Positions 8,455 to 27,142 of a stretch of DNA of 42,217 nt are shown in pieces. Position numbers and translations under genes: made by a program. Source of the DNA: a virus (lineage: Duplodnaviria; Heunggongvirae; Uroviricota; Caudoviricetes). The stretch lies in IMG/VR virus record IMGVR_UViG_2703718801_000022. One strand, given 5' to 3'. The notes below the pieces were generated by a model, which did not search any database, was not told the origin of the DNA, and saw only the letters and a list, made by a program, of their open reading frames with translations. The number at the start of each line of letters is the position of its first letter. The stretch's first letter is position 1.

Positions 8455-8974
8455 TAAAAATCAAATTGTCAGATATAAGGGTCGAGTATTGCATACGCAA
8501 AATTTCTCGGCCCTTTGTGCATCTGATCTTGAGCTGAAGAAAGTATCTGATGCCTTTGCCCAGTATTGGAAAACGGGATACCATCCATCTCTTGGTAAAG
8601 ATGCTGCATTTGCTCGTCCGACAGAAATGCTTAAACTAAATGTCAGGCATACTCATGTCGATAACCAAGACTATATTCCAGAAGATAGTGATAAAAAACA
8701 CACTGGTAAAAAATCATCTTGGGATGCATGGAAAAATATAGCGTCTGTACAAGTAAAATGCATACCAACAAGTGATTGCTTTTTAGTTTATTCGGTAAAT
8801 CACAATCGTGATGCGCTGGTTATGTTTTTTGTTGACGCAGATGCTCACAACATAACTGAGCAAGAAGAGTTTAAAGAGGAAGCAATCACTATCAGTTATC
8901 AATTCTTTGAGAAAACAAAAACAGAACCAATGCCTTTAGAAGAAGATCTTTTTTCTGATAAATGGAAGGAATAG
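8429..8974 (+). CDS. YafO-like toxin domain protein
   Basis: AGGAAA RBS; product resembles YafO ribosome-dependent mRNA interferase as recalled (LGKDAAF...LKLNVRHTHV...CFLVYSV...DADAH); AT-rich. Confidence 0.45.
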   Translation: MSSSASQNDKNQIVRYKGRVLHTQNFSALCASDLELKKVSDAFAQYWKTGYHPSLGKDAAFARPTEMLKLNVRHTHVDNQDYIPEDSDKKHTGKKSSWDAWKNIASVQVKCIPTSDCFLVYSVNHNRDALVMFFVDADAHNITEQEEFKEEAITISYQFFEKTKTEPMPLEEDLFSDKWKE

Positions 8975-9277: not shown

Positions 9278-9534
9278 GCACATCCCTGTGCCGCCGCCCG
9301 TCAGAAGAACCCTGCCTTGTCGTTGATGTATTCCGCGTGGGTCTGGATATCACGCAGGCATTTACTCACACCGACGATGTAGCAGAACATGGTGGTCAGC
9401 TCCGCCGCCGCGCCCGATACGTCGTGCCCGTCTTCCTGTAACTGGTTCAGCAGATTCATCAGCAGTGAGTTCTCCGTCAGGCCGAGAACACCAGACGGAG
9501 AATGAATCAGACTGCGGTAGCCGGGCTTCAGTGG
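9278..9534. repeat. Inverted repeat, right copy (3' end of second antirepressor gene plus 23 bp)
   Basis: Reverse complement matches 7894-8150. Confidence 0.85.
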
Positions 9535-10239
9535 ATAACCATAACATTTTGTCTGTGTTTTAATTGCCTCACGAAGCGCATCTAACATCTTGACTGCCAC
9601 TTCATCATTCTCTGATGCAACTCCAGCAGGGAGATACTCCCCTTCAAGCGGAACCCGGGCAACAAGAGACAACGCTTCGGCGAATTGATCTTCACCAATT
9701 TCTTTGTACGAACAGCCAAAGTGAGATTTTAGTGACGACCACATGGTAATGATCGCCCTCGCCTGTTTTTCTTTTGGCAGAGACTGACCGCGACTCATGA
9801 CGAGTTGTTTAATGGCTTCCTGCTGTTCAGTCGTGATTTTACCCGGCAACACCTTTTTAGCTTTGCGCGGGTTAACCACATGGCCTTTAGTCCAGTACTC
9901 GTAGAGCACATCATCACACTCTTCCTGATACTGGATTACCTTATCGCGGATTTCAGGGCGGACTTTGTTTGGACTGATGCTGTTCAACCAAGCTGCCAAT
10001 TTTCGTAAAGCCATACAAATCATGGCTTGCACCCCTCCGGCAGAAGGTATGGTGATTTCCACCATACCCTTCGAGAAGCGTTGAGAAATCTTCTTATGTT
10101 GAGATTTCCAGTCTAGACCCATTCCCTCAACGATAGGTTTCATTGGGGTGTACGGTTCGCCGTTGTGATTGACAACATAAAGTTCTACGCCGTGGAATGG
10201 CACGTTGATAGTAGATACCGCTGTTGCTATACTCGTCAT
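9301..10239 (-). CDS. Antirepressor, AntA/P22-Ant-like N-terminal domain plus shared Ant C-terminal domain
   Basis: 312 aa; N-terminus FHGVELYVVNHNGEPYTPMKPIVEGMGLDW; downstream of Arc-like gene as in P22 immI; C-terminus shared with 7417-8127. Confidence 0.75.
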   Translation of the reverse strand: MTSIATAVSTINVPFHGVELYVVNHNGEPYTPMKPIVEGMGLDWKSQHKKISQRFSKGMVEITIPSAGGVQAMICMALRKLAAWLNSISPNKVRPEIRDKVIQYQEECDDVLYEYWTKGHVVNPRKAKKVLPGKITTEQQEAIKQLVMSRGQSLPKEKQARAIITMWSSLKSHFGCSYKEIGEDQFAEALSLVARVPLEGEYLPAGVASENDEVAVKMLDALREAIKTQTKCYGYPLKPGYRSLIHSPSGVLGLTENSLLMNLLNQLQEDGHDVSGAAAELTTMFCYIVGVSKCLRDIQTHAEYINDKAGFF

Positions 10240-10312
10240 GTCGTTAATTCCTATACGTAGTTTTACGATACTGAAGCCCTTACGGTCTGGCCACCGTTGG
10301 GCTTCGCTGTTT
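10240..10312 (+). ncRNA. Candidate sar-like antisense RNA covering the antirepressor RBS
   Basis: -35 TTGATA (10205-10210), 17-bp spacer, -10 TATACT (10228-10233); nested hairpin GAAGCCC..ACGGT..ACCGT..GGGCTTC (10273-10305) + TGTTTTAT; antisense to ant RBS. Confidence 0.4.
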
Positions 10313-10479
10313 TATGCCACGCTATTCTTCTCACCAGTGAGTCCATACACTTTCCTCAACTGATAGATAATCTCTGTATTGAACTTTCGGCATTCTTTTT
10401 CACCATTTCTTTCAATAGCTAACTTCACATCGTCCGGAAAACGAATTCGTCGTTGACACATCTCTTTTGCTTTTTGCAT
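10312..10479 (-). CDS. Arc-like ribbon-helix-helix repressor
   Basis: 55 aa from ATG with AAGGAGAG RBS; RIRFPDDVKLAIERNGEKECRKFNTEIIYQL resembles P22 Arc; immediately upstream of ant. Confidence 0.7.
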   Translation of the reverse strand: MQKAKEMCQRRIRFPDDVKLAIERNGEKECRKFNTEIIYQLRKVYGLTGEKNSVA

Positions 10480-10599
10480 CTCATCTCTCCTTTGCCCCAC
10501 GGTGGGGCAAAATAATTGTCACACCGTGCGTCATTGATGTCAAGCACACGGTGAGGCATACTTCAATCATTGCAAGTAACTCAATATTTGGTGAAGAAC
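10480..10599. promoter_or_regulatory. Divergent Arc-like/Mnt-like control region with palindromic operators
   Basis: Perfect 19-bp palindrome TTGCCCCACGGTGGGGCAA (10492-10510); inverted CACCGTG (10522-10528) / CACGGTG (10547-10553). Confidence 0.5.
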
Positions 10600-11031
10600 A
10601 TGAGCAGAGAAGATCCACAACTAAGGATCAGACTTCCCATTGAAGTAAAAGAAAAAATAGAAATTTCTGCAAAAGCCAATAAGCGATCAATGAACGCTGA
10701 AATAGTACAACGTCTTGACACCAGCTTCCTGAAAGATATTCATGAAGATGACGTAATTTCTGCTTATGAAGCAAAAATCATTGCAAACAACGCACGGCAT
10801 GAAATATCAAATATCATTTTCAAAAGAACCTTTAATGAAATTAATAAAAAAATAACACTTGGACATACAAGTTTTTATATAAACCTTAATGACCTTGAAC
10901 TGGAATCACTTGCAGATAATGATTACCAGGTCATCTTTGAAAAAACATTTAATAAGCTCAATGAACTAGGTTACATCATCTGTGAAAATTCATGGGATGC
11001 AGATGGTTTTGGAATTGAAATACCTGAATAG
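10600..11031 (+). CDS. Mnt-like ribbon-helix-helix regulator with extended C-terminal domain
   Basis: N-terminus MSREDPQLRIRLPIEVKEKIEISAKANKRSMNAEIVQRL resembles P22 Mnt; 143 aa vs 83 aa for Mnt; AT-rich. Confidence 0.6.
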   Translation: MSREDPQLRIRLPIEVKEKIEISAKANKRSMNAEIVQRLDTSFLKDIHEDDVISAYEAKIIANNARHEISNIIFKRTFNEINKKITLGHTSFYINLNDLELESLADNDYQVIFEKTFNKLNELGYIICENSWDADGFGIEIPE

Positions 11032-11098
11032 GAAGAACAAAAGGCGTGTGCATATTACACGTCTTTAATATAATTGAAAAACACCACATTACTGATGT

Positions 11099-11689
11099 AT
11101 GTCTGTTACAACAAGGAGCGACATTTTGAAAACCATATCTATATTAAAGGTTGCATTAGGCGTCGCTATTATTTTGACGCTCTCAATATTGTTTTATTTT
11201 TACAACAAAAAAACTGCTATTGCTCTTGATGGTCACGCGGCAAACTCATTTTTCTCAGAGTACATAGTACCGCTATCAGGAAGCAGTATAACAAATAAAT
11301 ATACTGACTATGACATCAAATATGGAATTGATGATGGGGAGTCTATTGTATTACACGTAATCATTAAAAACCTAATGACAGTAAATAAAAATGCAGACTT
11401 CAACGATAAAAATACAATACACCACAACCACAGCAAAACATTAATTTCTTATAGTAACAACATCTATACGGATAAATACCTAAAATACATATCAGAAGAT
11501 ACAATAAAAGCAACCCGCGAAAAGTTAAAAAACATATATTGTGCATCCGGCAGTTTTCACAAATTATCGCCGCAAGAGCGTTTATTCTACGAAGCAAGAA
11601 AACAACGCAAGTCGATAATATTACATTATTATGCTGATTCAGGGGAGTCACTCATATTTAATATTGGGGTTTCCCCTGAATCATGCTAA
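11099..11689 (+). CDS. AT-rich membrane-anchored protein at the sieA-equivalent position
   Basis: N-terminal TM helix, Asn/Lys/Tyr-rich body; alternative TTG start at 11124 after AAGGAG; lies between ejection-protein genes and mnt-like gene. Confidence 0.5.
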   Translation: MSVTTRSDILKTISILKVALGVAIILTLSILFYFYNKKTAIALDGHAANSFFSEYIVPLSGSSITNKYTDYDIKYGIDDGESIVLHVIIKNLMTVNKNADFNDKNTIHHNHSKTLISYSNNIYTDKYLKYISEDTIKATREKLKNIYCASGSFHKLSPQERLFYEARKQRKSIILHYYADSGESLIFNIGVSPESC

Positions 11690-11700
11690 AGGTGTTTAAC

Positions 11701-14700
11701 TCACCGCATCACCGGATCCACTTGGTTTATTAGTGGCGCAATCCAGAACAGGTTATTGCCGGGTATCAGGGTTCGGACATTATGCACAATACGATCACCG
11801 GCATCACCATTCAACACTCCTGCGGTCACATCAATGATGCTATCCGCAAGACCAAATGACGGTCCGAATAGAGATCCTACGAATCCACGACTGGCATACC
11901 TAGACTGTGTTCCAGTGCCAAATAAAGCCCCCAGCCCAACAGCACCACCAGTAGCCTTTTCAGCCATGTTGTTATATTCCATCAATGGCCCAAGAATACC
12001 GGATCTATCTATACCCTCAAGCACCAGCTTCTCTGGTGACCAGTCAACATTTTTCCCTTTCGATGCTTCTTTAAGCGCATAGACCAGTGAGCCAAGAGCA
12101 ATCTGAAATGCAGTGCCATAATAAAATTGCGCAGTTCCTTCCTGTAACCCACCAAGTAGCGCACGGTTGTATGAAGCCGTTGTGAATGATTTAAACTGAA
12201 ATATCGTTCGCCCCATTGGAGTACTCGCCCATAAAGGTGTGTCACCAATACCGGGGGTGATGATAGTGTTATTAACGTCTTTCAGAACCGCTGACTGGAA
12301 TACTCCGGCAACGTACTGATCGTCCCATTTATCAAAGTTACCAATGTGCCATCCATCAATTACCTCACCATGTTTCTCGAACTCACTGCGAATACGCGCA
12401 GCCATATTGTCGTTGATACCGAGTTTTGCCATGCGACGTGCAGAAAACGCACCAGACAAAATACCGTCTGACGTGAGCATTCCGCTCATAGATTTGTTTA
12501 TGTCATTAAATCGATCCATGAGTGTCAGCTTGCCGAAGGCATCAGTAATTCGCTCCATTCCTGCTTCGACTGCTGTTGTCCTGGAAGAACTGTCAATCAG
12601 ATCACCAATTGCACGAGAACGTGAATGTAGTACAGTTTCCAATCCAATCCCCATCTTCAACATCTCTTCTTTGCTGGCCTTAAATGCCGGTGATTGGGAT
12701 ATCTGAGAAGCATAGCCTTTCATGGTGTTACGGAAACCATTAACCATAACCCCTCTGGCCAGATCTGGAATAGCTGATACTGTCATTCCACCGAGTTTGG
12801 TCGTGAAGTTCACATCCCGCAGAAAAGCGCCAGCACGAACAAAAAACGAAGACGGGTCATCAGGCATACCATATGTACCAACAAGACGATCGCGTAATGC
12901 TGTTATGTCTCTGAGATCATTTGCTCTTGATTTTGAAAGTCTGGACTGTTCTTTTCGTAATTCCTTTTCGTACTTTCGCATTAATGAATCGAGTTTACCC
13001 TGAGGAACAACTTCACCATTGCTCTCATAGCGTGCTTTCAGATTTGCCACACTTTCGTCATATTTCGCCTTTATTTTTTCAGGCACTTCCCGTAACAGAC
13101 TGTCATATTCGTCCTCAATTAATTGCAGACGCTCAGTCATAGTTCGTTTGCCAAACGTTCTCGTCAACTCAATTTCTGCTGCCGCTTCACGGATATGACG
13201 CTGCAGCACGTAATTCACATCACTTTCAAGATAATCCCTGATAAGACTATCAGGCACATTTAATGTTCTTTCTTTCGTACTACCTGCGGCTTTTACAGAA
13301 AATACGCTGACAAAATCCTGTGGAACCTTAGCACCAGTAATTTTATTAATTACGATATCCGCTGCAATTTCAGCATCCTCAGGATCCAGTGTTTTATTTC
13401 CTCTCGACCACCAGTCAACCAAAATACGTCGAAATTTATCGCGTTCACTGATTATTTTTCCAACTTTATATATACGTGGAAAATAGCTTGCCTGGCCTAA
13501 TGCTTTCAGTTCTTCATCTGGCGGTAATAAACCAAGCTTTTGCATTTCAACCTTCACCCGATTTAATACAGTTCGCATCGCCTGCGCCGTTTCCTGAACA
13601 ACAGGATTAGCATGCACATCACCGCTTCGCATAGCATTCCCAACCTGCTGACGAAATGAATCAAAACTCATGTCACCACCATCAGCTTTATACTTTGCGT
13701 ATGCCTGTTTATTTCCGACAACAACAGCAGCTTCTTCACGCTGCCATCCACGTGTACGGGTTTCTACAGCTACCGGTGTTTCAATCCCCCTTTCATTTCC
13801 TTTAAGGGTGAAATTATTTTCGGCTAACTCCAGCGTTGTTTTTCGCACTGTCTTGGACGGAGACTCCATTAACCTTGTCAAAGGAGTAAGATAGCTCCCT
13901 GCTTTCCATGCAGCCTTTCCAACCACCCCACCGGAAACAGGGGTTAAATCATCCAGAGTCGCTGTATCAATTTTCATAGCACCAACACTACCACCATCGG
14001 AAAGCGAAGCGGCAGCCCTGTCAGTCGCTGATGTAATGCTCATATTATCAAGAGCATCAGCAACCTCACGTGTGGCTGCAGCCCGGACGGATGGCGAAAG
14101 CGCAACACCAGCACTGGCAAACACGCCGCTCATCATCGCACCCGCTGCAACGTGAGCGGCACTTTCACCCCATGAGCGTGTTATTTGCTGATTATTCAGC
14201 ACAACCTCGCTTAATGCTGTACCGGCAGCACCAATCGCAATCTGTGAGCCAATACGCGCCAGTGCCCCTCCTTGAGCACCGGGGATAAACATTGACGCAA
14301 CAGTAACCGGATCCATTCCCGCAGCAATACTGGCAAGAGTTCCAACTACGCCAGCATCAGACAATAAACGTCTGTCTTCATTTTCATCATCTATCTGCTG
14401 CTTAATCCACGCCGTTTCCTCTGGCGATCGGGAATCTGCAAATTTCGCCCCCCAGTATTCATAACCGTGCAACTCATTTTTATCAGCATATGGGTTATAA
14501 CCTTCGACCGGTTCAAACTGTCTGGCTGGTCGGAAAAAACCAGCCAGAATATTGTTCTGTCGCATTGCAGCCCCCCATACGGAAGGCTCCGGTGGCAATG
14601 GCTCAGGATTAGCCCCTTCCGGAAGGGCAACATCAAACCCAGTTTGTTCCGGCAAAACATTACCTGACGGGATCAGTCCGTTATTAAGATCTTCAGCTTG

Positions 14701-14715
14701 TGCATAAACTGGCAT
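11701..14715 (-). CDS. Large internal virion/ejection protein (T7 gp16 position)
   Basis: 1004 aa; last large gene of the structural operon; assignment by size and gene order. Confidence 0.55.
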   Translation of the reverse strand: MPVYAQAEDLNNGLIPSGNVLPEQTGFDVALPEGANPEPLPPEPSVWGAAMRQNNILAGFFRPARQFEPVEGYNPYADKNELHGYEYWGAKFADSRSPEETAWIKQQIDDENEDRRLLSDAGVVGTLASIAAGMDPVTVASMFIPGAQGGALARIGSQIAIGAAGTALSEVVLNNQQITRSWGESAAHVAAGAMMSGVFASAGVALSPSVRAAATREVADALDNMSITSATDRAAASLSDGGSVGAMKIDTATLDDLTPVSGGVVGKAAWKAGSYLTPLTRLMESPSKTVRKTTLELAENNFTLKGNERGIETPVAVETRTRGWQREEAAVVVGNKQAYAKYKADGGDMSFDSFRQQVGNAMRSGDVHANPVVQETAQAMRTVLNRVKVEMQKLGLLPPDEELKALGQASYFPRIYKVGKIISERDKFRRILVDWWSRGNKTLDPEDAEIAADIVINKITGAKVPQDFVSVFSVKAAGSTKERTLNVPDSLIRDYLESDVNYVLQRHIREAAAEIELTRTFGKRTMTERLQLIEDEYDSLLREVPEKIKAKYDESVANLKARYESNGEVVPQGKLDSLMRKYEKELRKEQSRLSKSRANDLRDITALRDRLVGTYGMPDDPSSFFVRAGAFLRDVNFTTKLGGMTVSAIPDLARGVMVNGFRNTMKGYASQISQSPAFKASKEEMLKMGIGLETVLHSRSRAIGDLIDSSSRTTAVEAGMERITDAFGKLTLMDRFNDINKSMSGMLTSDGILSGAFSARRMAKLGINDNMAARIRSEFEKHGEVIDGWHIGNFDKWDDQYVAGVFQSAVLKDVNNTIITPGIGDTPLWASTPMGRTIFQFKSFTTASYNRALLGGLQEGTAQFYYGTAFQIALGSLVYALKEASKGKNVDWSPEKLVLEGIDRSGILGPLMEYNNMAEKATGGAVGLGALFGTGTQSRYASRGFVGSLFGPSFGLADSIIDVTAGVLNGDAGDRIVHNVRTLIPGNNLFWIAPLINQVDPVMR

Positions 14716-27065: not shown

Positions 27066-27142
27066 GTGGCATTAACTCAGTTGGACAGAGCAACCGCCTT
27101 CTAAGCGGTTTGTCGCAGGTTCGAATCCTGCATGCCACGCCA
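27066..27142 (+). tRNA. tRNA-Arg (anticodon UCU)
   Basis: Cloverleaf by eye: acceptor GTGGCAT/ATGCCAC, anticodon stem ACCGC/GCGGT with loop CTTCTAA, T-arm GCAGG-TTCGAAT-CCTGC, 3' GCCA. Confidence 0.85.

What the first reader, a model, noticed from the sequence alone, without database searches (positions are those of the whole stretch)
10480..11689. Mnt-like regulator with an extra C-terminal domain plus an AT-rich membrane protein at the sieA-equivalent position
The divergent control region holds a perfect 19-bp palindrome and CACCGTG/CACGGTG inverted repeats. The plus-strand gene starts like P22 Mnt but is 143 aa, carrying about 60 extra residues of unknown function. It is followed by a 196-aa single-pass membrane protein with very AT-rich codons, located where P22 carries sieA between the ejection-protein genes and mnt. 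The pair is a candidate superinfection-exclusion or abortive-infection module, and the membrane protein has no family I can name.
Basis: partly seen in the sequence, partly recalled or inferred. Interest (0 to 1): 0.55.

Follow-up and report, generated by a model that had tools for sequence, protein, structure and literature searches.

The report
P22-type immI region plus periplasmic moron
This stretch of an E. coli prophage is a complete copy of the P22-type "second immunity" switch (long Mnt-like repressor, Arc-like repressor, sar antisense RNA, antirepressor), followed by an unrelated rare gene for a membrane-anchored periplasmic protein that always sits beside the phage's DNA-ejection genes and is a reasonable but untested candidate for blocking infection by related phages.

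Summary
10600-11031(+) encodes a 143-aa protein whose first 86 residues align with all of P22 Mnt, followed by about 57 extra residues. The control region carries a 21-bp palindrome and three CAC(C/G)GTG sites. An AT-rich gene for a single-pass envelope protein lies where P22 has sieA.

Corrections: the envelope gene most likely starts at TTG 11126 (187 aa, not 196). The locus also holds an Arc-like gene, a sar-like antisense RNA and ant, so it is a full immI region.

The two genes are not a module. The long Mnt occurs in more than 260 protein clusters across Enterobacterales, always beside the small Arc-like gene and an antirepressor, and in every non-E. coli module examined without the envelope gene. 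The envelope protein belongs to a tiny family (15 clusters among 1.84 billion representatives). In ten distinct contexts it lies convergent to the last ejection-protein gene. Only the E. coli lineage has the Mnt-like gene upstream.

The protein is not SieA. It has one N-terminal helix and a periplasmic domain with two conserved cysteines. One homologue is fused to a copy of the ejection protein's N-terminal segment. Superinfection exclusion is plausible (about 0.4) but untested. Moderate interest.

The parts
9301..10239 (-). ant: antirepressor, 312 aa
   Evidence: Pfam P22_AR_N matches with E 3.8e-44. PHROG 524/245 'anti-repressor Ant' also match.
10205..10233 (+). Promoter-like site for the sar-like antisense RNA (TTGATA-17-TATACT, with TG)
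   Evidence: Consensus scan gives 10 of 12 matches. The site lies inside the 5' end of ant, as Psar does in P22. Function is inferred.
10241..10308 (+). sar-like antisense RNA covering the ant start and the arc-ant junction
   Evidence: Rfam RF00262 sar matches model positions 1-68 of 68 at 40.1 bits (gathering score 43), E 5.9e-6. A terminator-like hairpin at 10284-10303 is followed by a T run. The fold has dG -23.5 kcal/mol and z -3.0.
10312..10479 (-). Arc-like small ribbon-helix-helix protein, 55 aa
   Evidence: BLASTP against P22 Arc gives 33% identity and E 3e-5. PHROG Arc-like families match with E 2e-5. A 55-58-aa homologue is present in the related modules examined.
10493..10509 (.). 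Operator O1: TGCCCCAC-G-GTGGGGCA, the core of the 21-bp palindrome at 10491-10511. It lies between the -10 of the leftward promoter and the arc-like Shine-Dalgarno.
   Evidence: Seen. It has the same CCACGGTGG core and the same position as the P22 mnt operator AGGTCCACGGTGGACCT. It is conserved, with symmetric substitutions, in Yersinia and Enterobacter modules.
10517..10533 (.). Operator O2: TGTCACAC-C-GTGCGTCA, lying in the spacer of the leftward promoter
   Evidence: Seen. It is invariant in all five aligned modules.
10542..10558 (.). Operator O3: AAGCACAC-G-GTGAGGCA, lying in the spacer of the putative rightward promoter
   Evidence: Seen. In Enterobacter, Yersinia and Proteus modules this site is the near-perfect palindrome CCCCAC(G/A)GTGGGG.
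10515..10543 (-). Pant-like promoter for arc-like and ant (TTGACA-17-GACAAT, with TG)
   Evidence: Consensus scan gives 10 of 12 matches. Both hexamers are invariant across genera.
10534..10562 (+). Putative Pmnt-like promoter (TTGATG-17-CATACT), back to back with the Pant-like promoter
   Evidence: Read by eye. It scores 8 of 12, below the scanner's cut-off. The -10 is CATAAT in the other genera. This is inferred.
10600..11031 (+). Long Mnt-like repressor, 143 aa: ribbon-helix-helix domain (about 1-46), an Mnt-like long helix (55-86) and an extra acidic alpha/beta part (87-143)
   Evidence: Supported. The AF2 model has pLDDT 82, with helix H55-86, strand E91-95, helix H106-123 and strand E136-140. 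Full-length homologues are 60-69% identical across Enterobacterales. pN/pS is 0.05.
11040..11066 (+). Hairpin (11-bp stem) between the two plus-strand genes; a possible partial or bidirectional terminator
   Evidence: The fold has dG -12.8 kcal/mol and z -3.25. The terminator scan found it on the minus strand. Function is inferred.
11069..11074 (+). Perfect TATAAT, a candidate -10 of the envelope gene's own promoter
   Evidence: Read. No good -35 is present. It is inferred by analogy with PsieA and from homologues that lack any upstream Mnt-like gene.
11126..11689 (+). 187-aa N-terminally anchored, probably periplasmic protein (PHROG 8033). TTG start, with AAGGAG at 11113-11118.
   Evidence: Supported. 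Y46, P49, Y62, Y66, G67, Y138, C139 and K162 are invariant, and C187 is nearly so.
11701..14715 (-). Last internal-virion (ejection) protein, 1004 aa, convergent with the envelope gene
   Evidence: PHROG 342 'internal virion protein' matches with E 3.5e-209. The genes upstream in its operon carry SLT and T7_gp14 domains. A homologue is the neighbour of every family member examined.

Best explanation
The locus consists of two independent units that happen to be adjacent in this E. coli prophage lineage (TL-2011b type).

Unit 1 (9301-11031) is a complete P22-type immI region. A leftward promoter drives a 55-aa Arc-like repressor and the antirepressor Ant. A sar-like antisense RNA covers the ant start. 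A divergent promoter drives a 143-aa Mnt-like repressor. In the lysogen this repressor most likely binds the 17-bp palindromic operators O1, O2 and O3 (core CCAC-N-GTGG) and keeps ant silent. The extra C-terminal 57 residues pack onto the Mnt-type oligomerisation helix. They most likely enlarge or alter the oligomer so that one particle can occupy more than one of the three operators, which are spaced 24-25 bp apart. A partner- or signal-binding role is the alternative.

Unit 2 (11040-11689) is a separately promoted, AT-rich moron. It encodes a 187-aa protein held in the inner membrane by an N-terminal helix, with a disulfide-stabilised domain in the periplasm. The gene is always found against the end of the ejection-protein operon. 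In sister prophages the slot holds other small membrane proteins. One homologue carries a copy of the ejection protein's N-terminal segment. I therefore infer that the prophage expresses this protein and that it interferes in the periplasm with the ejection-protein conduit of incoming related phages. That would make it a functional analogue of SieA, but not a homologue.

Shown here: the homologies, the operators, the sar match, the synteny, the positional conservation and the fusion.
Inferred: DNA binding at these particular sites, expression in the lysogen, the topology, and the exclusion activity.

Sub-confidences: immI assignment 0.85; independence of the two units 0.8; periplasmic location 0.7; superinfection exclusion 0.4.
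For: Unit 1 (immI region):
- Arc domain, E 1.2e-14.
- Alignment with full-length P22 Mnt, E 2e-14, and PDB hits to Arc, Mnt and AmrZ.
- Arc-like 55-aa protein against P22 Arc, E 3e-5.
- Ant carries P22_AR_N.
- sar RF00262 matches at full length, 40.1 bits, E 5.9e-6, at the arc-ant junction on the antisense strand.
- The promoter hexamers and three operators are conserved across four genera.
- O1 shares the CCACGGTGG core and the position of P22 Omnt.
- The clustering of the three sites is non-random.
- The same 55-aa / antirepressor / long-Mnt module occurs in Enterobacter, Yersinia pestis and Proteus siphovirus-type prophages.

Unit 2 (envelope protein):
- One N-terminal hydrophobic helix.
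- Two conserved Cys, and homologues with classic cleavable signal peptides.
- Every family member examined is convergent to an ejection-protein homologue, with 18-52 nt between the matches, except the fused L012 member (315 nt). This holds although the proteins have diverged to 28-43% identity.
- Sibling E. coli prophages with a 96%-identical ejection protein carry other small membrane proteins in the same slot.
- P0140 is a family member fused to a 46-aa copy of ejection-protein residues 66-111 (50% identity, E 1e-11) followed by a transmembrane helix.
- pN/pS is 0.55, against 0.05-0.13 for the neighbouring genes, and all 16 variable residues lie outside the membrane helix.
- P22 SieA, in the equivalent slot, blocks injection through the ejection proteins (PMC10883804).
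Against: - There are no expression or phenotype data for any member of either family.
- The model of the envelope protein is of low confidence (pLDDT 62), so the PA3611/AspS resemblance is only a lead. A profile search instead gave a weak hit to iota-carbonic anhydrase repeats. BFVD gave nothing.
- The fusion protein comes from a single metagenomic contig.
- The pN/pS estimate rests on a few substitutions in related sequences, and relaxed constraint would give the same value.
- Positional conservation could simply mark a permissive insertion site for morons of any function.
- The sar match is 3 bits below Rfam's gathering score.
Confidence: 0.45

Rival explanations
1. The Mnt-like regulator and the membrane protein form one two-gene exclusion or abortive-infection module. 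The regulator's extra domain senses infection and controls the downstream effector.
For: The genes are adjacent, on the same strand and share the AT-rich composition. They co-occur in the same number of E. coli genomes, 36 of 5426 each, and in all 18 IMG/VR loci.
Against: That co-occurrence is within one lineage of near-identical DNA. Outside it the two families never travel together. The regulator's conserved partner is the arc-like/ant operon with shared operators. A hairpin and a perfect -10 separate the genes. There is no PADLOC hit.
Confidence: 0.08
2. The envelope protein is a lysogenic-conversion or fitness factor that acts on the host's own envelope. It could be, for example, a pilotin-like chaperone or binder of a host secretin or periplasmic protein, or a serum- or stress-resistance moron. 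It would have no role against phages.
For: It is an AT-rich, oppositely oriented moron. The best fold matches are host periplasmic proteins, PA3611 and the AspS pilotin. Many prophage morons of this kind are host-directed (general knowledge).
Against: This does not explain the strict adjacency to the ejection-protein gene in ten contexts. It also does not explain the fusion to an ejection-protein segment. The family is confined to one prophage type.
Confidence: 0.25
3. The envelope protein is a periplasmic inhibitor of the murein-degrading (SLT) internal virion protein. It would either protect the lysogen from incoming phages' lytic transglycosylase, as T4 Sp does, or protect the cell during the phage's own assembly.
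For: The neighbouring operon encodes an SLT-domain internal virion protein. The protein has a periplasmic, disulfide-containing small domain.
Against: The gene abuts the 1004-aa protein, not the SLT protein, and the fused segment in P0140 comes from the 1004-aa protein. There is no similarity to the known lysozyme-inhibitor families in Pfam or NCBIfam.
Confidence: 0.1
4. The extra C-terminal part of the Mnt-like protein is a sensor or partner-binding domain, for example for an anti-Mnt factor or a small molecule, which lets the switch respond to a signal. It would not be an oligomerisation add-on.
For: It is strongly conserved and acidic (pI 4.05). The model shows a compact alpha/beta unit with pLDDT about 90. 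P22 Mnt works without it.
Against: No ligand-binding fold was recognised. In the model it packs along the helix that aligns with Mnt's tetramerisation helix. Three equally spaced operators fit cooperative multi-site binding.
Confidence: 0.3

Closest known systems
P22 immI region (mnt, Pmnt/Pant, arc, sar, ant)
   Same: The gene order and orientations match. The promoters are divergent and overlapping. The 17-bp palindromic operator has a CCACGGTGG core and lies between the Pant -10 and arc. The sar antisense RNA sits at the arc-ant junction. The region lies between the ejection-protein genes and the tailspike.
   Different: The repressor is 143 aa rather than 83 aa. There are three related operators rather than one Omnt plus one unrelated Oarc. 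There is no orf59a. The host phage is not P22-like: it has T7_gp14/SLT-type internal virion proteins, and its ejection protein is related to those of Klebsiella and Vibrio podophages.
P22 Mnt repressor (PDB 1MNT)
   Same: The N-terminal arm and ribbon-helix-helix domain match (MSREDPQLRIRLP against MARDDPHFNFRMP). The following long helix aligns with Mnt's C-terminal helix.
   Different: There are 57 extra C-terminal residues forming a beta-alpha-beta unit, with no counterpart in Mnt and no structural relative. Positions 6 and 8 of the DNA-reading arm differ, and the outer operator bases differ correspondingly.
P22 SieA superinfection-exclusion protein
   Same: It is encoded in the slot between the last ejection-protein gene and mnt, convergent to the late operon, and apparently has its own promoter. 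It is a small envelope protein (PMC10883804).
   Different: There is no sequence similarity (E 0.32). The protein has one transmembrane helix rather than three. The FxRYPxEAxxFNK motif is absent. Most of the protein is predicted to be periplasmic rather than membrane-embedded or cytoplasmic. It occurs in a different phage type.
AspS pilotin / PA3611 periplasmic protein fold (PDB 4FTF, 3NPD)
   Same: It is a small periplasmic alpha/beta domain. The order of elements is similar (alpha, beta-strands, alpha2, alpha3, beta4, beta5, C-terminal turn). A conserved Cys pair lies in a comparable part of the chain (the end of the long helix and the C-terminus) to the AspS/PA3611 disulfide.

Membership tests
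Arc/Mnt ribbon-helix-helix repressors (Pfam PF03869) | Profile match above the curated cut-off over the RHH domain | tested here: met
   54.2 bits against a cut-off of 20.4, residues 2-46. PDB profile hits to Arc, Mnt and AmrZ.
P22 Mnt (immI repressor) | Similarity extends beyond the RHH domain into the C-terminal oligomerisation helix | tested here: met
   BLASTP aligns residues 1-86 with Mnt 1-83, E 2e-14. The AF2 model has a helix at 55-86. The oligomeric state itself cannot be tested with these tools.
P22 Mnt (immI repressor) | Divergently transcribed from an arc-ant operon, with a palindromic operator over the ant promoter region | tested here: met
P22 Mnt (immI repressor) | About 83 aa, with nothing after the C-terminal helix | tested here: not met
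   The protein is 143 aa. Residues 87-143 are extra and are conserved in more than 260 homologue clusters.
P22 Mnt (immI repressor) | Binds the operator and represses ant in the lysogen | not testable with these tools
   This needs EMSA or footprinting and reporter assays.
sar antisense RNA (Rfam RF00262) | Covariance-model score at or above the gathering threshold | tested here: inconclusive
   40.1 bits against 43. The match covers the full model (1-68 of 68), E 5.9e-6. It is on the correct strand and in the correct place, with a promoter-like and a terminator-like site.
SieA (P22-type superinfection exclusion) | Sequence similarity to SieA types A, B or C | tested here: not met
   BLASTP against P22 SieA gives E 0.32. 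Only type A was tested.
SieA (P22-type superinfection exclusion) | Three (type A) or four predicted transmembrane helices and the cytoplasmic motif FxRYPxEAxxFNK | tested here: not met
   There is one hydrophobic segment only. The motif is absent from the sequence. The criteria come from PMC10883804.
SieA (P22-type superinfection exclusion) | Gene located between the last ejection-protein gene and the tailspike, in the immI neighbourhood | tested here: met
SieA (P22-type superinfection exclusion) | Blocks DNA injection by related phages | not testable with these tools
   This needs plating and DNA-entry assays.
AspS/PA3611 periplasmic fold | Structural superposition with a convincing score | tested here: inconclusive
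AspS/PA3611 periplasmic fold | Conserved disulfide that fixes the C-terminal helix (alpha4) relative to alpha2 | tested here: inconclusive
   C139 is invariant and C187 nearly so, at positions in the chain that could correspond (PMC3542185). Bond formation was not tested.
AspS pilotins | Outer-membrane lipoprotein signal (lipobox) | tested here: not met
   There is no Cys in the N-terminal segment of the window protein. The homologues' Cys is not in a canonical lipobox.
Known anti-phage defence systems (PADLOC-DB 2.0) | Any profile match | tested here: not met
   No hit for either protein at E up to 1.

The most novel reading that the evidence does not exclude
The 187-aa protein founds a new family of periplasm-facing superinfection-exclusion proteins specific to podophages with T7-type internal virion proteins. 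It would work by binding, or in the fused form mimicking, the conserved N-terminal segment (residues about 60-115) of the last ejection protein. This would stop the trans-envelope DNA conduit from assembling. The long-Mnt C-terminal domain would separately be a new oligomerisation or sensor module for ribbon-helix-helix repressors.
Probability: 0.3. Interest if true: 0.65.

Novelty: new variant of a known kind. Interest (0 to 1): 0.45.

Why it matters
The immI switch has been studied almost only in P22. This work shows a long-Mnt version with three related operators that is widespread in Enterobacterales prophages of several morphotypes, including Yersinia pestis and Enterobacter. This version would be a good system for asking how an added domain changes cooperative operator binding.

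If the envelope protein does exclude phages, it would be a second, unrelated solution at the same genomic address as SieA. It would give a direct handle on how T7-type ejection proteins cross the periplasm, which is poorly understood. The natural fusion to an ejection-protein segment suggests where to look. If it does not exclude phages, it is one more uncharacterised prophage moron.

Tried and rejected
- SieA homology: rejected (the topology and motif criteria from PMC10883804 are not met).
- Mnt-like protein as a fusion of Mnt and P22 Orf59a (83 + 59 aa is about 143): rejected, no alignment at all.
- PADLOC, NCBIfam and Pfam gave nothing for the envelope protein. PHROG only places it in the unknown-function family 8033.
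- Foldseek against BFVD viral structures found nothing significant.
- The afdb50 library was unavailable.
- A profile of the envelope family against PDB sequences gave a summed E of 3e-6 to iota-carbonic anhydrase repeats. Each repeat alone has E about 1, the order of elements differs, and I treat the hit as unreliable.
- Lipoprotein reading: rejected, there is no canonical lipobox.
- I first assumed from memory that TL-2011b is epsilon15/phiV10-like. NCBI leaves it unclassified. In the phage collection its ejection protein finds Klebsiella, Escherichia EC.W1-9 and Vibrio podophages. I dropped that label; my early notebook entries still carry it.
- The search for related loci with the diverse alignment A2 failed because no stretch was conserved enough. 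With a narrower alignment it found only Proteus cibi among 185,579 species genomes.
- A first clustering simulation timed out and was redone.
- A literature search found no functional work on these two genes.
Full report
**What the window is.** The region 10250-11750 is 97% identical to Escherichia phage TL-2011b, the only phage record that matches. It is 100% identical to prophages in several E. coli chromosomes. The late operon on the minus strand ends with a T7_gp14-like protein, an SLT-domain protein of 905 aa and a 1004-aa internal virion protein. In the phage collection the 1004-aa protein finds Klebsiella, Escherichia EC.W1-9 and Vibrio podophages. NCBI leaves TL-2011b unclassified. I therefore do not use the epsilon15 label that I first recalled from memory.

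**Checking the observation.**
- The palindrome is TTTGCCCCAC-G-GTGGGGCAAA, with arms at 10491-10500 and 10502-10511.
- The heptamer CAC(C/G)GTG occurs at 10498, 10522 and 10547, spaced 24 and 25 bp apart. Seven copies in the whole window is not unusual (4.5 expected). Three copies within 60 bp never occurred in 400 Markov simulations, and an analytic estimate is about 1e-4.
- The plus-strand gene 10600-11031 encodes 143 aa. Its ATG start is fixed by the invariant N-terminus MSREDPQ in 40 homologues.
- The downstream ORF can be read from ATG 11099 (196 aa). However, PGAP, the full-length PHROG 8033 profile (187/187), the AAGGAG at 11113-11118 and the homologues all point to TTG 11126, giving 187 aa.
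- Both plus-strand genes are AT-rich: 32.6% and 33.2% GC against 47.7% for the window.

**The regulator and its true partners.** Pfam Arc matches residues 2-46 (E 1.2e-14). A profile of the family finds Arc, Mnt and AmrZ in the PDB, but only over the ribbon-helix-helix part. BLASTP against P22 Mnt aligns residues 1-86 with the whole of Mnt (32% identity, E 2e-14). The long helix 55-86 of the AlphaFold model (pLDDT 82) therefore corresponds to Mnt's C-terminal helix, which from the literature on Mnt, as I recall it, forms the tetramer.

This long form is not peculiar to this phage. More than 260 protein clusters at 60-69% identity carry it, in Citrobacter, Enterobacter, Salmonella, Yersinia (including Y. 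pestis), Proteus, Serratia and other genera. The C-terminal part is conserved throughout.

In Enterobacter, Y. pestis and Proteus the gene sits inside siphovirus tail-gene clusters. It is always divergent from a 55-58-aa gene followed by a Bro-N/P22_AR_C or pRha/ANT antirepressor. None of these modules carries the envelope gene.

**A complete immI region.** On the minus strand the window has a 55-aa protein that resembles P22 Arc (E 3e-5; PHROG Arc-like families). It is followed by Ant (P22_AR_N, E 3.8e-44). Between them, on the antisense strand, Rfam's sar model matches at full length (10241-10308, 40.1 bits against a gathering score of 43, E 5.9e-6). This match is flanked by a promoter-like site inside ant and a terminator-like hairpin, exactly as in P22.

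The leftward promoter is TTGACA-17-GACAAT at 10543..10515. By eye there is a back-to-back rightward promoter, TTGATG-17-CATACT, at 10534-10562. Its -10 is CATAAT in the other genera.

Three 17-bp sites surround these promoters.
- O1 (10493-10509) lies between the leftward -10 and the arc-like Shine-Dalgarno.
- O2 (10517-10533) lies in the leftward spacer.
- O3 (10542-10558) lies in the rightward spacer.

An alignment of the control regions from E. coli, TL-2011b, Enterobacter, Y. pestis and Proteus shows O2 and both leftward hexamers invariant. O1 and O3 are conserved as palindromes with symmetric substitutions.

The P22 mnt operator is AGGTCCACGGTGGACCT and O1 is TGCCCCACGGTGGGGCA. The two share the central nine bases and the position. 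The Mnt-like and Arc-like proteins share a Q-x-R-I-R-hydrophobic-P reading strand, which fits three related sites.

I conclude with high confidence that 9301-11031 is an immI-type region and that the 143-aa protein is its Mnt. Which protein binds which site, and what the extra domain does, remain inferences.

**The envelope protein.** It has one hydrophobic helix, at residues 4-27, and no other. Pfam, NCBIfam and PADLOC find nothing. The word-indexed search found only close relatives. An exhaustive HMMER search of 1.84 billion representatives found just 15 clusters. Only TL-2011b among 50,697 phage records carries it.

The family alignment shows Y46, P49, Y62, Y66, G67, Y138, C139 and K162 invariant, and C187 nearly so. 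Some members have textbook cleavable signal peptides. Two conserved cysteines and secretion signals argue for a periplasmic domain.

The protein is not SieA.
- BLASTP gives E 0.32.
- SieA has three transmembrane helices and a cytoplasmic FxRYPxEAxxFNK motif (PMC10883804).
- Neither feature is present here.

**Where the envelope gene lives.** In every context recovered, the gene lies convergent to a homologue of the 1004-aa ejection protein, a few tens of bases from its stop. These contexts are the E. coli lineage, three Providencia prophages, Proteus sp. GOKU, Proteus cibi and five metagenomic contigs. The family proteins have themselves diverged to 28-43% identity. Only the E. coli lineage has the Mnt-like gene upstream.

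E. coli prophages whose ejection protein is 96% identical but which lack this gene carry other small membrane proteins in the slot. One is a 175-aa protein with an N-terminal helix, and another is a 98-aa protein with two helices.

One homologue, P0140 on contig L012, continues past the conserved C-terminal cysteine. The extension holds a 46-residue copy of ejection-protein residues 66-111 (50% identity, E 1e-11) followed by a second membrane helix. The contig's own ejection gene is intact.

Within the E. coli lineage the gene has pN/pS 0.55, against 0.05 (mnt-like), 0.13 (arc-like) and 0.12 (ejection protein). All 16 variable residues lie outside the membrane helix. The counts are small and the sequences are related, so this is only suggestive.

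Between the two plus-strand genes there is an 11-bp-stem hairpin (dG -12.8 kcal/mol, z -3.25) and a perfect TATAAT at 11069-11074. This resembles the terminator-then-PsieA arrangement in P22.

**Interpretation.** The two genes are separate units that became neighbours in one lineage. The regulator belongs to the immI switch.

The envelope protein is a moron tied to the ejection-protein operon. Four things make superinfection exclusion at the DNA-entry step the most likely function (about 0.4): its location, its predicted periplasmic exposure, the diversity of the slot, and the fusion to an ejection-protein segment. P22 SieA is a precedent, since it blocks the gp16/gp20 conduit (PMC10883804). 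Under this reading the protein is a functional analogue of SieA from an unrelated family.

A host-directed conversion function (about 0.25) and a murein-hydrolase inhibitor (about 0.1) remain open. Nothing supports abortive infection.

**Novelty and score.** The immI region is a new member, in a long-Mnt variant, of a known kind of switch. The envelope protein is an uncharacterised rare family that may be a new kind of exclusion protein. Overall this is a new variant of a known kind, with interest 0.45.

Noticed in passing
window 10241-10308 (+): A sar-like antisense RNA (Rfam RF00262, full-length match, 40.1 bits, just under the gathering score of 43) lies at the arc-ant junction. It has a promoter-like site at 10205-10233 and a terminator-like hairpin at 10284-10303.
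   Followed up: yes
L012 2958-3752 (protein P0140): A homologue of the envelope protein is extended at its C-terminus. The extension holds a 46-aa copy of residues 66-111 of the neighbouring type of ejection protein (50% identity), followed by a second transmembrane helix. It comes from a single metagenomic contig.
   Followed up: partly
L001 (TL-2011b) about 6375, equivalent to window about 10626-10631: The deposited TL-2011b genome has one extra G (CTAAGGGATC against CTAAGGATC) at about codon 9 of the mnt-like gene. This shifts the frame, and both deposited annotations consequently start the gene at an internal Met (113 aa). It could be a real mnt-minus mutation or a homopolymer sequencing error.
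   Followed up: partly
window 7859-8150 and 9278-9569: A 292-nt inverted repeat (92% complementary) encodes the shared C-terminal about 85 aa of the Bro-N protein (7402-8127, +) and of Ant (9301-10239, -). It brackets a 1127-nt AT-rich segment that holds the YafO-like gene. This could be a recombination or inversion substrate.
   Followed up: partly
window 8402-8974 (+): This is a YafO-family toxin-like ORF (Pfam PF13957, 26.1 bits, just above the cut-off; PGAP calls it a YafO family toxin). No antitoxin is annotated. A 59-aa ORF (8275-8454) overlaps its start. YafO-like genes recur in the same island in the Providencia and metagenomic relatives (L008, L022).
   Followed up: no
L019 3948-4475, L020 3948-4475, L021 4180-4476: Sibling E. 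coli prophages with a 96%-identical ejection protein carry unrelated small membrane proteins in the slot next to the ejection gene. One is a 175-aa protein with an N-terminal TM helix; another is a 98-aa protein with two TM helices. This slot is a hot spot for envelope proteins.
   Followed up: partly
window 11707-11751: A 45-bp piece of the 3' end of the ejection-protein gene matches unannotated DNA at 97.8% in many E. coli chromosomes, several of them ST131. It may be a prophage remnant or a recombination scar.
   Followed up: no
L016 and L017 358-2046: In Proteus, the homologous long-Mnt/antirepressor module has an AIPR (abortive infection phage resistance, PF10592) gene as cargo just beyond the antirepressors. 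These immI modules therefore seem to collect defence genes.
   Followed up: no
L018 4520-4771 (P22 mnt, NC_002371); PHROG 795 and 2685: The RefSeq record of P22 labels mnt as 'partition protein ATPase'. The PHROG families that the Mnt-like protein hits carry the same label. This looks like a propagated annotation error.
   Followed up: no
window 11126-11689 compared with L026-L043: Within the E. coli lineage the envelope gene has pN/pS 0.55, while its neighbours have 0.05-0.13. The 16 variable residues all lie outside the membrane helix. One allele (P0001, L042) has a 7-aa deletion in the clade-specific loop.
   Followed up: partly
window 27066-27142 (+): A tRNA-Arg (anticodon TCT) gene lies inside the prophage.
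   Followed up: no
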